A stretch of DNA of 64,000 bases. Source: Actinomycetota bacterium (GTDB taxonomy: Bacteria; Actinomycetota; Actinomycetes; Nanopelagicales; Nanopelagicaceae). The DNA is taken from assembly GCA_947465575.1 (NCBI GenBank), contig CANIBB010000001.1, positions 2,804 through 66,803 of the forward strand, given 5' to 3'. The notes under the pieces were generated by a model. That model had not been told where the DNA came from. It searched no databases and worked only from the letters and a program-made list of their open reading frames with translations. Of the stretch, positions 28,637-31,731 are shown in pieces. The position numbers and the translations under genes are program-made. How positions within the stretch are numbered: position 1 is the first letter of the stretch; each line of letters starts with the position of its first letter.

Positions 28637-29341
28637 ATGAGTATCAAATCACCGATCGTATTGGCTGTTGATACCTCGGATTTGGAAACGGCGATTGCAT
28701 GGGTTAAAGCCACGGAGGGTTTGATAGCGGTCTATAAGTTAGGATTAGAGTTTTATTTAAATTTTGGACAAGAGGGTGTTCGCGCGATTTCTAGTTCTAC
28801 GGATAGCGATATATTTTTAGATCTTAAACTTCACGATATTCCGCATACGGTTTCTGGTGCCGCTGCATCTATCTCTTCCCTTGGCGTAAAGTATTTAACG
28901 GTGCACGCATCGGGTGGAAGTGCAATGATTTCAGCGGCCGCGCAGGCAGTCCCATCAACTTTTGTCACGGGAGTAACCATCTTGACCTCACTCTCTGAGA
29001 GCGATGTCTCGGAAATTGGCTTCAAAAATAATGCACTTGAGAGTGCAGTGGGCTTAGCAAAACTCGCCGTCTCAGCTGGTGCTCGTGCAATTGTCTGTTC
29101 TCCACTTGAAATCCTCGCAATTCGCCAGAGCGTTGGAAATGAGATCACGATCATTACCCCGGGTGTTCGCCCTGCAGATAGTGCAGCGGGCGATGATCAG
29201 AAACGGACGATGACTCCGCAAGATGCGATAGATAAGGGCGCGGATCTAGTTGTCATAGGACGTCCAATTACTTCGTTCTGGAGCCAGGGCGGGTTGGCGA
29301 TGAGAGAGCGGACCGAGCAAATCTGCGCACAGATTCTCTAA
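28637..29341 (+). CDS. pyrF: Orotidine-5'-phosphate decarboxylase
   Basis: DLKLHDIPHTV, TPGVR, DQKR, VIGRPIT. Confidence 0.97.
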   Translation: MSIKSPIVLAVDTSDLETAIAWVKATEGLIAVYKLGLEFYLNFGQEGVRAISSSTDSDIFLDLKLHDIPHTVSGAAASISSLGVKYLTVHASGGSAMISAAAQAVPSTFVTGVTILTSLSESDVSEIGFKNNALESAVGLAKLAVSAGARAIVCSPLEILAIRQSVGNEITIITPGVRPADSAAGDDQKRTMTPQDAIDKGADLVVIGRPITSFWSQGGLAMRERTEQICAQIL

Positions 29342-29369
29342 ATTTTGATTAGTGGACTAGATTTCTTGT

Positions 29370-30242
29370 ATGGGCGCCCCTCCGATATTGACTGCCGAGG
29401 AGCGCACTGCCGCTCTTTTAAAGGCGGCTCAGTCTCGCAAACGCCGTGCTGAGGTGAAAGCAAAAGTTAAAACCGGTGAGTTTTCCATCGATGCCGTACT
29501 TGAAATTGCCGCTAATGAAGATGCCATTGCAAAGATGCGCGTCAGAGAGTTGTTAGAGGCGCTGACGGGCGTTGGAAAAGTTCGGGCAGGCTCCTTGATG
29601 GAGCGGTTGAATATTTCTCCAACCCGTAGAATTGCTGGATTGGGACGTCATCAAATTAAAGAGCTACGAAACGAGTTTATGAAATCATCACATGCGTTAA
29701 CTCCAGGAAAGCTACTCGTTCTCTCAGGTCCCGGGGGAGTTGGTAAGAGCACCGTGGCTGCGCGCCTTAGAGCATCGGGTGATTTCTGGGTTAGCGTTTC
29801 TGCGACCACTAGAGCGCCACGATTGAACGAGCATGATGGTGTCGATTATTTCTTTATCAGCGATGATGAGTTTTCACGCCGAGTGCGCAGTGATGAGTTT
29901 CTAGAGTGGGCTGAGTTTGCAGGAAGTAGATATGGAACACCGAGCGCCGCAGTCGAAGAGGCCTTACTTGCTGGCCGCAATGTTCTTTTAGAGATTGAGG
30001 TTGATGGCGCTAGGCAGGTAAAGGCTCATCTGCGGCAATCAATACTGGTCTTTCTAGAGCCACCTTCATGGGAGGAGCTTGTTTCGCGCCTTATCGCCCG
30101 TGGAACCGATACGCCTGAGCGGCGTGCTGAGCGCTTGCAACTAGCCCAAGAGGAGCTCGCAGCGGCCTCATTCTTTGACCTGGTAATCGTCAATGATCAG
30201 GTCGAGCGAGTTGTTGAACAACTGATATCATTGACCTCTTGA
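29370..30242 (+). CDS. gmk: Fusion: actinobacterial integration host factor (mIHF, aa 1-103) + guanylate kinase (aa ~104-290)
   Basis: N-part is mIHF-like (PILTAEERTAALLKAAQSRKRRAEVK...LLEALTGVGKVRA...RRIAGLG); C-part is Gmk (SGPGGVGKST, SATTRAPR, GVDYFF, YGTP); no stop between them. Confidence 0.92.
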   Translation: MGAPPILTAEERTAALLKAAQSRKRRAEVKAKVKTGEFSIDAVLEIAANEDAIAKMRVRELLEALTGVGKVRAGSLMERLNISPTRRIAGLGRHQIKELRNEFMKSSHALTPGKLLVLSGPGGVGKSTVAARLRASGDFWVSVSATTRAPRLNEHDGVDYFFISDDEFSRRVRSDEFLEWAEFAGSRYGTPSAAVEEALLAGRNVLLEIEVDGARQVKAHLRQSILVFLEPPSWEELVSRLIARGTDTPERRAERLQLAQEELAAASFFDLVIVNDQVERVVEQLISLTS

Positions 30243-30281
30243 CCACATTGTTTTTAATATTGATATGAGCGGGGTATAACT

Positions 30282-30530
30282 ATGGATGGCATCACAAATC
30301 CACCGATTGACGAACTTCTAGAGAAAAGTGGCTCTAAATACAGCCTCGTTCTCTATGCAGCCAAGCGTGCCCGTCAGATTAATGCTTACTATTCGCAGCT
30401 CGGTGAAGGCCTACTTGAGTACGTCGGACCACTCGTAGAGACTCATGTGCATGAGAAGCCACTATCTATCGCACTTCGCGAGATTAATGAAGGCTTGCTC
30501 ACGATTGAAAATCTCGAACCAACGGCTTAA
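30282..30530 (+). CDS. rpoZ: RNA polymerase omega subunit
   Basis: [42 protein letters not shown]. Confidence 0.96.
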
Positions 30531-30546
30531 ATAACTCTTCCTTGCT

Positions 30547-31731
30547 ATGTCTGCCACAACTCGTGAGGTCGTACTCGGAGTTGGCGCAGGAATTGCCGCC
30601 TACAAATCATGTGATCTCTTGCGTCGCCTGCAAGATCGTGGCTACTCAATAACGGTTGTACCAACTCCCTCCTCGCTTAACTTTGTTGGTGCAGCGACAT
30701 GGGAAGCTCTCTCGCATCGCAAGGTGAGCACGCAGGTCTGGGAAAATGTCGATGAGGTTTCGCATATTTCTATTGCAGAAAAGACCGATTACTTTCTTAT
30801 CGCTCCTGCGACCGCAGATTTAATTGCGCGAATAGCCGGCGGCCGCGCAGATGATCTTCTGACTAATTTAGTCCTTGCCTCGAGCGTTCCCATCTTGGTC
30901 GTTCCAGCTATGCATCCACAGATGTGGACGGATCCTGCAACCGTTGCAAATGTTGCCACTCTTCGCGCCCGCGGTTATATCGTGATGGAGCCAGAGGTCG
31001 GAAGATTGACGGGCAATGATATTGGTCAAGGTAGATTTCCCCAGAGCTCGGCGATTATCGAAGTATTCGATGGAATGACCGGAAATCTGCGCGACCTAGT
31101 AGGTAGACGAATATTGATCTCAGGGGGCGGAACTCGAGAGGCGATTGATCCAGTTCGCTTTATTGGCAATCGCTCCTCAGGCAAGCAATCACTGGCGCTA
31201 GCGAAGGCAGCCCTTTTGCGTGGAGCGACCGTGCATCTTGTGGCCGCCAATATGCAGGTAGCGGCTGTCGATGGCCTAACGGTTAGTCACGTTGAAAGCG
31301 CGGCAGAGATGAGCGTGGCTCTAGAACGAGAGTTTGCCTCATGCGATATCTTGATTATGAGCGCGGCCGTTGCAGATGCAAAACCTGTGCGCAGTCCTGC
31401 ACAAAAGATAAAGAAAGCTCTCTTCACCTCAATTGAATTAGAGCAAAATCCCGATCTTTTGATGCAGTTGAGCTCAAAAAAGGGGCGACAGATAATGATT
31501 GGCTTCGCCGCTGAGACCAATGATCTCCTGGAGTCGGCAACTGCCAAGTTAGTGGCTAAAGGCTTGGATATTCTCTACGTCAACGATGTCAGTAACGGCG
31601 CAATCTTCGGAAAAGATACGACACAGGGTATGATTCTGACACGCACTGGTGCGCATATAGAAGTCAAGGAAGCCTCCAAAGACGCTCTAGCCAATCTCCT
31701 CCTTGATCACGCCATCCGGCAGTTAGGTTAA
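30547..31731 (+). CDS. coaBC: Phosphopantothenoylcysteine decarboxylase / phosphopantothenate--cysteine ligase
   Basis: GIAAYK, APATAD, PAMH, DPVRFIGNRSSGK, GFAAET. Confidence 0.96.
   Translation: MSATTREVVLGVGAGIAAYKSCDLLRRLQDRGYSITVVPTPSSLNFVGAATWEALSHRKVSTQVWENVDEVSHISIAEKTDYFLIAPATADLIARIAGGRADDLLTNLVLASSVPILVVPAMHPQMWTDPATVANVATLRARGYIVMEPEVGRLTGNDIGQGRFPQSSAIIEVFDGMTGNLRDLVGRRILISGGGTREAIDPVRFIGNRSSGKQSLALAKAALLRGATVHLVAANMQVAAVDGLTVSHVESAAEMSVALEREFASCDILIMSAAVADAKPVRSPAQKIKKALFTSIELEQNPDLLMQLSSKKGRQIMIGFAAETNDLLESATAKLVAKGLDILYVNDVSNGAIFGKDTTQGMILTRTGAHIEVKEASKDALANLLLDHAIRQLG

What the first reader, a model, noticed from the sequence alone, without database searches (positions are those of the whole stretch)
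29370..30242. Nucleoid-associated protein mIHF fused in frame to guanylate kinase
Seen: one 290-aa ORF with a complete mIHF/sIHF-like domain (aa 1-103), a short linker (MKSSHALTPGK) and a full Gmk, with no stop or frameshift. An in-frame ATG at 29679 could also give free Gmk. Established: mihF and gmk are normally separate adjacent genes between pyrF and rpoZ in Actinobacteria, and Gmk is a (p)ppGpp target in several Gram-positive lineages. Inference: the fusion could tether GDP synthesis to the nucleoid, or make DNA compaction respond to GMP/ppGpp or to Gmk oligomerisation.
Basis: partly seen in the sequence, partly recalled or inferred. Interest (0 to 1): 0.75.

Follow-up and report, generated by a model that had tools for sequence, protein, structure and literature searches.

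The report
Conserved mIHF–guanylate kinase gene fusion
In this freshwater actinobacterium (Candidatus Planktophila) the DNA-packaging protein mIHF and the essential enzyme guanylate kinase really are made as one 290-residue protein, but the same fusion sits in many public genomes labelled only "guanylate kinase", so it is genuine and unstudied rather than rare.

Summary
Window 29370-30242 (+) is one open 290-codon frame. It carries a full actinobacterial IHF domain (aa 5-103), an 11-residue linker and a full guanylate kinase (aa 113-288).

It is not an assembly error. The fusion is present in all 80 closest species-level genomes, including closed isolate genomes, and in about 12 of 18 sampled Nanopelagicaceae genera. 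In closed genomes it is the only IHF copy and the only Gmk copy found.

Basal genera of the family keep two genes with overlapping stop and start. The fusion therefore arose inside the family, by loss of the mihF stop.

The same architecture arose separately in Microbacteriaceae and Tropheryma whipplei, and in at least one further species. RefSeq names these proteins only "guanylate kinase".

The linker varies in length and sequence between genera. The internal ATG is not conserved, and AlphaFold2 predicts two confident domains joined by a low-confidence tether. Nothing found here shows any function beyond the two ancestral ones.

This scan has confirmed the same fusion before on other DNA.

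Seen in passing: in another class of the phylum, many genomes have mihF and gmk in one frame, separated by a single stop, with no start codon for gmk. That suggests stop read-through.

The parts
29370..30242 (+). Whole fused mihF-gmk ORF (290 codons plus TGA)
   Evidence: a single open frame; both families score above their curated cut-offs.
29382..29678 (+). Actinobacterial IHF (mIHF/sIHF) domain, aa 5-103
   Evidence: NF041260 at 116.6 bits against a cut-off of 60. Aligns over aa 3-104 to sIHF (4ITQ, residues 3-103 of 107) and to mIHF (6TOB). AF2 helices at 9-35, 40-49, 51-54, 58-64, 70-79 and 93-104, with block-mean pLDDT 89-96 over aa 11-100.
29568..29645 (+). H2TH turn (GVGKVRA) and the basic lid (NISPTRRIAGLG), aa 67-92; these are the DNA-contact elements of sIHF
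   Evidence: Alignment to 4ITQ. G69 is invariant and R87, G90, L91, G92 nearly invariant in 32 fused proteins. The DNA-contact roles come from PMC3627587.
29679..29711 (+). Linker, aa 104-114 (MKSSHALTPGK), including the in-frame ATG at 29679-29681
   Evidence: Block-mean pLDDT about 63 over aa 101-110. Linker length is 4-26 aa and the sequence is not conserved between genera. An ATG is present in 50 of 80 species; M is replaced by L in some Planktophila.
29706..30233 (+). Guanylate kinase domain, aa 113-288
   Evidence: TIGR03263 at 212 bits against a cut-off of 160.45. Best solved relatives are 4QRH, 2J41 and 1ZNW at E about 1e-41. GMP-site and lid residues are invariant.
29727..29753 (+). 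P-loop GPGGVGKST, aa 120-128
   Evidence: G120, P121, G125 and K126 are invariant in alignment A1.
28637..29341 (+). pyrF, the upstream neighbour (context)
   Evidence: The synteny pyrF-(mihF gmk)-rpoZ-coaBC is kept in all Nanopelagicaceae loci examined.
30282..30530 (+). rpoZ, the downstream neighbour (context)

Best explanation
This is a genuine, vertically inherited translational fusion of two neighbouring operon genes. An ancestor inside the Nanopelagicaceae lost the mihF stop codon and the few bases that separated or overlapped it from the gmk start. Since then one polypeptide has carried an N-terminal monomeric DNA-binding IHF domain and a C-terminal GMP kinase, joined by a short flexible tether. 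Each half most likely keeps doing its ancestral job: non-specific nucleoid binding through the H2TH turn and lid, and phosphorylation of GMP to GDP. The fused gene is the only copy of either function in these small genomes. The main forced consequence is 1:1 co-production of the two activities, and a kinase that is held on DNA whenever the IHF part is bound. Shown here: the anatomy, conservation, distribution, sole-copy status and independent origin. Inferred: that both activities are retained, and that the fusion adds little beyond the sum of its parts.
For: Open frame and both domains above curated cut-offs. The fusion is present in 30 of 36 and then 71 of 72 sampled genomes of the genus, including more than 30 single-contig genomes. 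It is present in about 12 of 18 sampled genera of the family, down to 47% identity, and in 80 of 80 closest species genomes named Candidatus Planktophila or Nanopelagicaceae. In closed genomes it is the only NF041260 hit. With the whole fusion protein as query, those genomes show no second Gmk or IHF. The own MAG has one hit to each family. In split genera of the same family the stop and start overlap (TAATG, ATGA) or lie no more than about 30 nt apart, and three of the ten split loci examined are already in the same frame. One indel or one stop-loss is therefore enough to fuse them. In a pyrF+rpoZ+coaBC tree the basal genera are split and the crown clade is mostly fused. The Gmk tree places the fused Nanopelagicaceae among the split Nanopelagicaceae and away from the fused Microbacteriaceae and Tropheryma group, which argues for an independent origin rather than transfer. 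The invariant residues across 32 fused proteins are the functional ones: the P-loop, the SxTTRxxR/Y/E/YGT GMP site, the lid arginines, the IHF R23, R26, G69, Q95 and the lid RxxGLG. AF2 gives mean pLDDT 91, a linker block at 63 and pTM 0.62, consistent with two rigid domains on a tether. [quoted passage not shown]
Against: No protein-level data exist, so internal initiation at Met104 or proteolytic separation cannot be excluded for this species. mIHF is among the most abundant proteins in M. tuberculosis (PMC6155035), so a forced 1:1 ratio with a housekeeping kinase looks wasteful. The fusion recurs and persists across whole families, which hints at selection rather than neutrality. Within Planktophila the linker (MKSxHAxxP) is about as conserved as the rest of the protein, so it may not be a mere spacer. 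Two split genera (g35, g42) sit inside the mostly fused crown clade with weak support, so several gains or re-splitting events are possible.
Confidence: 0.75

Rival explanations
1. Dual products: the fused frame is translated, but a substantial share of free Gmk is also made by internal initiation at ATG 29679 (Met104). This codon may be a relic of the ancestral gmk start.
For: Met104 sits exactly at the IHF/Gmk boundary. An ATG is kept in the linker of 50 of 80 species. Split relatives start Gmk with M-x(0-4)-G-K/R-L. The upstream sequence is A-rich.
Against: M is replaced by L in several Planktophila. 19 of 80 species have no ATG/GTG/TTG anywhere in the linker. Fused genera g27, g29 and g30 have no Met in the linker. 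No convincing Shine-Dalgarno sequence lies upstream, only GAG 3 nt before the ATG. The one promoter-like site in 28900-30700 lies at the 3' end of the ORF, far downstream of ATG 29679, and the scan found no more sites than shuffled sequence gives. Without a stop codon there is no termination-reinitiation coupling.
Confidence: 0.15
2. Adaptive coupling: the covalent link is selected because the two activities work together. Examples would be GDP/GTP supply localised at the nucleoid, DNA compaction that responds to GMP, GDP or (p)ppGpp bound in the Gmk active site, or multivalent DNA bridging through Gmk oligomerisation.
For: At least three independent origins, each retained over long periods. 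Near-universal mihF-gmk adjacency across the phylum. In another class, many genomes have gmk in frame behind the mihF stop with no start codon of its own, as if a fused product were needed there too. Rel is present in closed relatives. The nucleoid-protein set looks small: one HU and no Lsr2 hit in closed genomes.
Against: There is no direct evidence. The linker varies in length and sequence between genera. pTM 0.62 gives no sign of a fixed interface. Fusion of translationally coupled neighbours is a common, often neutral event, and many lineages are one mutation away from it. Most Actinomycetota manage with split genes.
Confidence: 0.2
3. Artefact: a sequencing or assembly error removed a stop or shifted the frame in a 67%-complete MAG.
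For: The genome is a fragmented MAG of 153 contigs at 67% completeness, and no reads could be inspected.
Against: The same open frame occurs in a 98%-identical relative, in dozens of closed genomes, and in all 80 closest species. The same is true of many independent metagenome assemblies.
Confidence: 0.01

Closest known systems
mIHF (M. tuberculosis Rv1388, PDB 6TOB) and sIHF (S. coelicolor SCO1480, PDB 4ITQ/6BEK), the actinobacterial H2TH nucleoid-associated proteins
   Same: The N-terminal 103 residues align end to end. They show the same long N-terminal helix followed by a helical H2TH core in the AF2 model, and the H2TH turn and basic lid are conserved. The genomic position after pyrF and before gmk/rpoZ is the same.
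   Different: The known proteins are free-standing and about 105 aa long. Here the C-terminus runs on into Gmk with no stop.
Bacterial guanylate kinase (TIGR03263; e.g. S. aureus 4QRH, M. tuberculosis 1ZNW)
   Same: Residues 113-288 match over the full length, with the P-loop, GMP site and lid arginines intact.
   Different: It carries a 112-residue N-terminal DNA-binding extension and, in many relatives, has no start codon of its own.
IHF-Gmk fusion proteins of Microbacteriaceae (Microbacterium, Cryobacterium, Amnibacterium, Mycetocola) and Tropheryma whipplei (WP_011102530.1), annotated 'guanylate kinase', 297-309 aa
   Same: Same domain order and the same two families. It is the sole IHF copy in the genome. 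The fusion was found in 13 of 13 sampled Microbacteriaceae genomes.
   Different: Independent origin: the Gmk tree separates the two groups. These proteins have a different P-loop (GPTAVGKGT), a one-residue insertion after WA, longer linkers, and a more divergent IHF domain at 56-78 bits against 117 here.

Membership tests
Actinobacterial IHF (NCBIfam NF041260; mIHF/sIHF) | Profile score above the curated cut-off over the whole domain | tested here: met
   116.6 bits against a cut-off of 60; profile positions 3-101 of 102.
Actinobacterial IHF (NCBIfam NF041260; mIHF/sIHF) | Fold: a long N-terminal helix followed by a helical H2TH core | tested here: met
   AF2 helices at 9-35, 40-49, 51-54, 58-64, 70-79 and 93-104, with block-mean pLDDT 89-96 over aa 11-100. 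End-to-end alignment to 4ITQ and 6TOB. No structural superposition was run.
Actinobacterial IHF (NCBIfam NF041260; mIHF/sIHF) | H2TH second turn and basic lid that contact DNA | tested here: met
   GVGKVRA and ISPTRRIAGLG are conserved against sIHF. G69 is invariant and R87, G90, L91, G92 are at least 90% conserved in 32 fused proteins. The roles come from PMC3627587.
Actinobacterial IHF (NCBIfam NF041260; mIHF/sIHF) | Free-standing protein of about 105 aa | tested here: not met
   There is no stop after codon 103; the frame continues into Gmk.
Actinobacterial IHF (NCBIfam NF041260; mIHF/sIHF) | Sequence-independent DNA binding and nucleoid association | not testable with these tools
   Needs EMSA or localisation of the fusion protein.
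Guanylate kinase (TIGR03263, EC 2.7.4.8) | Equivalog profile score above the curated cut-off | tested here: met
   212 bits against a cut-off of 160.45; profile positions 1-177 of 180.
Guanylate kinase (TIGR03263, EC 2.7.4.8) | P-loop, GMP-binding residues and lid arginines | tested here: met
   GPGGVGKST at aa 120-128. S142, S144, T146, T147, R148, R151, E154, Y160, E179, Y188-G189-T190, R240, R244 and R255 are invariant in alignment A1.
Guanylate kinase (TIGR03263, EC 2.7.4.8) | GMP kinase activity | not testable with these tools
   Inferred from sole-copy status in closed relatives and from intact catalytic residues.
IHF-Gmk fusion architecture (PF22525 + PF00625 in one protein) | Both domains in one uninterrupted frame, with IHF N-terminal | tested here: met
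   The same architecture is precomputed for the 120 best of 1589 matching protein clusters.
IHF-Gmk fusion architecture (PF22525 + PF00625 in one protein) | Common descent with the Microbacteriaceae/Tropheryma fusion | tested here: not met
   In the Gmk-domain tree the Nanopelagicaceae fused forms nest among split Nanopelagicaceae (support 87). The Microbacteriaceae and Tropheryma forms make a separate clade (support 85). Many families with split genes lie between them.

The most novel reading that the evidence does not exclude
A covalent IHF-Gmk polypeptide may be functionally selected across Actinomycetota. It would be made constitutively by gene fusion in Nanopelagicaceae and in Microbacteriaceae/Tropheryma. 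In lineages where gmk lies in frame behind the mihF stop with no start codon of its own, it would be made in smaller amounts by read-through of that stop. That would mean the nucleoid protein and guanylate kinase act together, for example as chromatin that senses guanine nucleotides or (p)ppGpp, or as a GDP/GTP supply located at the nucleoid. It would also mean the mihF stop codon sets the ratio of free IHF to fusion protein.
Probability: 0.15. Interest if true: 0.75.

Novelty: new member of a known kind. Interest (0 to 1): 0.35.

Why it matters
mIHF is essential and one of the most abundant proteins in M. tuberculosis, and Gmk is an essential step in GTP synthesis. Large, ecologically dominant lineages (the freshwater acI group), a large cultured family (Microbacteriaceae) and a human pathogen with a reduced genome (T. 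whipplei) all make the two only as one protein. That fact is not visible in annotation, where the product is named only "guanylate kinase", and no paper on it was found in the searched library. It has three uses. It is a natural test of whether a nucleoid protein tolerates or exploits a bulky enzyme cargo. It is a Rosetta-stone hint that the near-universal mihF-gmk adjacency reflects a functional link. It is also a practical annotation warning, because IHF looks absent from these genomes if one reads product names only. The fusion in this window is ordinary for its clade and shows no sign of a new mechanism.

Tried and rejected
Assembly or frameshift artefact: rejected by conservation across closed genomes and independent assemblies.

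A second free copy of IHF or Gmk: none found in the own MAG. None found in closed relatives either, with the IHF profile or with the whole-protein query. The Gmk profile itself was run only on the own MAG.

Horizontal spread of a single fused gene between lineages: rejected by the Gmk tree and by the intervening families with split genes.

Link to genome reduction: rejected as a rule. Microbacteriaceae of 3-4 Mb are fused, while small-genome basal Nanopelagicaceae are split.

Relaxed selection on the IHF part after fusion: not supported. IHF profile scores fall in the crown clade whether the genes are fused or split (80-131 bits fused; 96-139 bits split), and all are above the cut-off.

Internal promoter or terminator within the ORF: the scan found no more sites than shuffled sequence gives.

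Literature: eight full-text searches found no paper describing the fusion.

Fused forms in other classes, including the Acidimicrobiia cases in earlier scan notes: no uninterrupted fusion was found in my 201-genome phylum sample. One turned up when family f90, in another class, was searched directly (G808). The class of these genomes was not identified, so the Acidimicrobiia notes were neither confirmed nor refuted.

TAG reassignment as an explanation of the in-frame stops in the other class: rejected, because rpoZ and gmk end with TAG in the same loci.

No structure search was run, because sequence matches to solved structures were already unambiguous.

Full report
OBSERVATION

Window 29370-30242 (+) is a single ORF of 290 codons with an ATG start and a TGA stop.

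NCBIfam places the actinobacterial IHF model NF041260 on aa 5-103 (116.6 bits, cut-off 60). It places the guanylate kinase equivalog TIGR03263 on aa 113-288 (212 bits, cut-off 160.45). Pfam agrees, with PF22525 H2TH_5 and PF00625.

The N-terminal part aligns end to end with the solved sIHF (4ITQ, residues 3-103 of 107) and mIHF (6TOB). The C-terminal part aligns with solved guanylate kinases at E about 1e-41. So the frame runs from the last helix of IHF, through 11 residues (MKSSHALTPGK), into strand 1 and the P-loop of Gmk. The in-frame ATG at 29679 is codon 104. pyrF lies upstream, and rpoZ and coaBC lie downstream.

NOT AN ARTEFACT; WHOSE GENOME

The window lies in a 1.12-Mb MAG that is 67% complete. 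Record titles of the closest genomes name Candidatus Planktophila and Nanopelagicaceae, the freshwater acI lineage. They include closed isolate chromosomes such as IMCC19121 (CP015605.1).

- All 80 closest species-level genomes (59-89% identity) have the uninterrupted frame.
- So do 30 of 36, and in a second draw 71 of 72, genomes of the genus, among them more than 30 single-contig genomes.
- A search restricted to proteins of 159-508 aa that match the IHF part (residues 1-112) returned 1589 clusters. The 120 best were all IHF+Gmk proteins (119 of them 290 aa long) from freshwater metagenomes, named at most "guanylate kinase".
- The own MAG has one hit to each family.
- In closed relatives the fused gene is the only IHF profile hit. 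With the whole fusion protein as query, no second Gmk or IHF appears.

DISTRIBUTION AND ORIGIN INSIDE THE FAMILY

Among 151 genomes from 18 genera of the family, the gene is fused in g1, g26-g30, g32, g33, g36, g38 and g41. It is split in g31, g34, g35, g37, g40 and g42. In g39 it is split but in the same frame.

Junction sequences show that split genera have overlapping stop and start (TAATG, ATGA) or spacers of up to about 30 nt. Three of the ten split loci examined (both g39 loci and G197 of g42) have the two genes in one frame with only TAG or TAA between them. A single indel or stop-loss therefore suffices to fuse them.

A tree of the flanking markers pyrF+rpoZ+coaBC places the split genera g39, g31, g40, g34 and g37 at the base. 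The crown clade is mostly fused. The split g35, and a small group holding the split g42 with the fused g33, sit inside it at modest support. Well-supported branches force only one change of state within the family. The Gmk-domain tree gives the same picture.

One origin in the crown of the family is the simplest reading. Extra gains or re-splits are not excluded.

THE SAME FUSION ELSEWHERE

An exhaustive profile-free search of 1.84 billion representatives found about a dozen 50%-identity clusters of full-length fused proteins. One cluster contains Tropheryma whipplei guanylate kinase, WP_011102530.1, 304 aa. An older annotation of the same gene in another strain of the species gives 193 aa.

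A junction-spanning query (aa 60-160) was run over 401 genomes of the class. It found uninterrupted fusions in all 13 sampled genomes of one further family and in one species of a third family.

Exact look-ups name that family's proteins as "guanylate kinase" of Microbacterium, Cryobacterium, Amnibacterium and Mycetocola, i.e. Microbacteriaceae. All carry both families. There too the fused copy is the only IHF.

In the Gmk tree, Microbacteriaceae and Tropheryma form their own clade. The single-species case groups with split forms of other families. The Nanopelagicaceae fused forms nest among their split relatives. The fusion has therefore arisen at least three times.

NCBI's IHF model is typed "equivalog_domain" and the Pfam pair is precomputed on these proteins. 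The architecture is thus catalogued, but eight full-text searches found no paper that mentions it.

WHAT THE PROTEIN LOOKS LIKE

An alignment of 32 fused proteins from all lineages shows that the invariant positions are the functional ones.

- In Gmk: the P-loop (G120, P121, G125, K126); the GMP site (S142, S144, T146, T147, R148, R151, E154, Y160, E179, Y188-G-T190); and the lid arginines (R240, R244, R255).
- In IHF: R23 and R26 of the long helix, G69 of the H2TH turn, Q95, and the nearly invariant lid residues R87, G90, L91, G92.

The linker ranges from 4 to 26 residues and has no conserved motif across genera. Within Planktophila, however, it is fairly constant (MKSxHAxxP).

AlphaFold2 on this alignment gives mean pLDDT 91, with the 10-residue block around the linker at 63, and pTM 0.62. 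This is what two confidently folded domains with no fixed mutual orientation would give.

IHF profile scores of the fused proteins in the family (80-131 bits) overlap those of the split ones (96-139 bits). All are well above the cut-off, so the IHF part is not decaying.

INTERNAL START

Met104 could be a relic of the old gmk initiator, since split relatives begin Gmk with M-x(0-4)-G-K/R-L. It is not a conserved feature.

- Several Planktophila have Leu at this position.
- Fused genera g27, g29 and g30 have no Met in the linker.
- Of 80 species, 30 lack an ATG in the linker and 19 lack any ATG/GTG/TTG.
- Upstream of 29679 there is only GAG three bases away.
- The consensus scan found no promoter-like site upstream of that ATG and nothing above the level of shuffled sequence.

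Free Gmk from an internal start is therefore possible in this species but is not what the clade depends on.

MECHANISM AND RIVALS

The best-supported reading (0.75) is a bifunctional protein in which each half keeps its ancestral role. It was created by loss of the stop between two translationally coupled genes. Its main forced consequence is equimolar production and a DNA-tethered kinase.

The fusion recurs and persists. Gene adjacency is near-universal. Rel is present in closed relatives. The nucleoid-protein set looks small, with one HU and no Lsr2 hit in closed genomes. None of this is a test, and the variable linker and the absence of a predicted interface argue against a tight allosteric device.

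Dual products from Met104 get 0.15. An artefact gets 0.01.

SEEN IN PASSING, OUTSIDE THE WINDOW

A profile of the fused proteins was run on 201 genomes across the phylum. It found no further uninterrupted fusion, but 29 genomes have mihF and gmk in one frame separated only by one to three stops.

In 4 of the 15 such junctions I could examine (16 were fetched), no ATG, GTG or TTG lies between the stop and a position from which a complete Gmk could start. One of the four has only a GTG inside strand 1.

In family f90 of another class (uncultured "Actinomycetota bacterium" MAGs, 68-71% GC in the four loci checked), 27 genomes were searched and 20 had a match.

- 12 of the 20 have this same-frame arrangement. 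In ten of these the stop is TAG; in most it follows a conserved ...K-R (AAG AGG TAG).
- 1 is fully fused (G808).
- 7 are split in other frames.

In 10 of the 12, from eight genera, no canonical start exists before LFVISGPSGVG.

In a 151-genome draw of that class, 45 genomes are same-frame. Of 26 further junctions, 12 lack a plausible canonical start and none uses ATG.

TAG ends rpoZ and gmk in the same loci, so the genetic code is not changed.

The simplest reading is that Gmk there is made by read-through of the mihF stop, which would give an IHF-Gmk fusion, or by an unorthodox re-initiation. Earlier notes of this scan had flagged single cases. This is the basis of the novel case and needs experiments.

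EARLIER FINDINGS AND CAVEATS

This scan has already followed up the same fusion on several other genomes, with the same verdict: real, conserved, common in public data, unstudied. My results were obtained independently and agree.

The tallies include genomes flagged unpublished: G042, G050, G059, G272, G274, G494, G532, G596, G622, G638, G666, G703, G759, G823, G851, G876 and G915. Loci L162 (G823) and L190 (G851) are counted among the junctions of the passing observation. No claim about the window's own fusion rests on these genomes.

VERDICT

This is a new, independently arisen member of a catalogued but unstudied fusion architecture. Interest is moderate (0.35).

Noticed in passing
Other genomes: loci L146, L148, L149, L153, L158-L167, L170-L195 (mihF/gmk junctions): In another class of Actinomycetota, about 30% of sampled genomes have mihF and gmk in one frame separated by a single stop. 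In family f90 the stop is often TAG after a conserved AAG AGG. In 22 of the 38 junctions examined in that class's two draws there is no plausible ATG/GTG/TTG from which a complete Gmk could start. TAG is a normal stop in the same loci. This suggests stop read-through producing an IHF-Gmk fusion, or an unorthodox re-initiation.
   Followed up: partly
Closed relatives G007, G031, G061, G069 (no window coordinates): The nucleoid-protein set of Nanopelagicaceae looks minimal. There are one or two HU genes (PF00216) and no Lsr2 (PF11774) hit in four closed genomes, so the IHF domain of the fusion is one of very few recognisable nucleoid proteins. Neither was found in the own 67%-complete MAG, which is not evidence of absence.
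   Followed up: partly
Tropheryma whipplei guanylate kinase (P0307 / P0308): The same gene of the species is annotated as 304 aa (WP_011102530.1, IHF+Gmk) in one record and as 193 aa (Q83GE3, Gmk only) in another, from a different strain. The IHF domain scores 56 bits, just under the 60-bit cut-off, so IHF may look absent from this pathogen in annotation.
   Followed up: partly
Loci L025, L026 (genus g39) and L027 (G197, genus g42): Split Nanopelagicaceae in which mihF and gmk are already in the same frame with only TAG(TAG) or TAA between them. These are states one point mutation away from the fusion.
   Followed up: yes
Closed relatives, e.g. G007 C1:714013-716082 against the fusion at 687722-688582: The single rel (TIGR00691) gene lies about 25-28 kb from the mihF-gmk fusion in closed Nanopelagicaceae genomes. 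Probably just conserved chromosome order.
   Followed up: no
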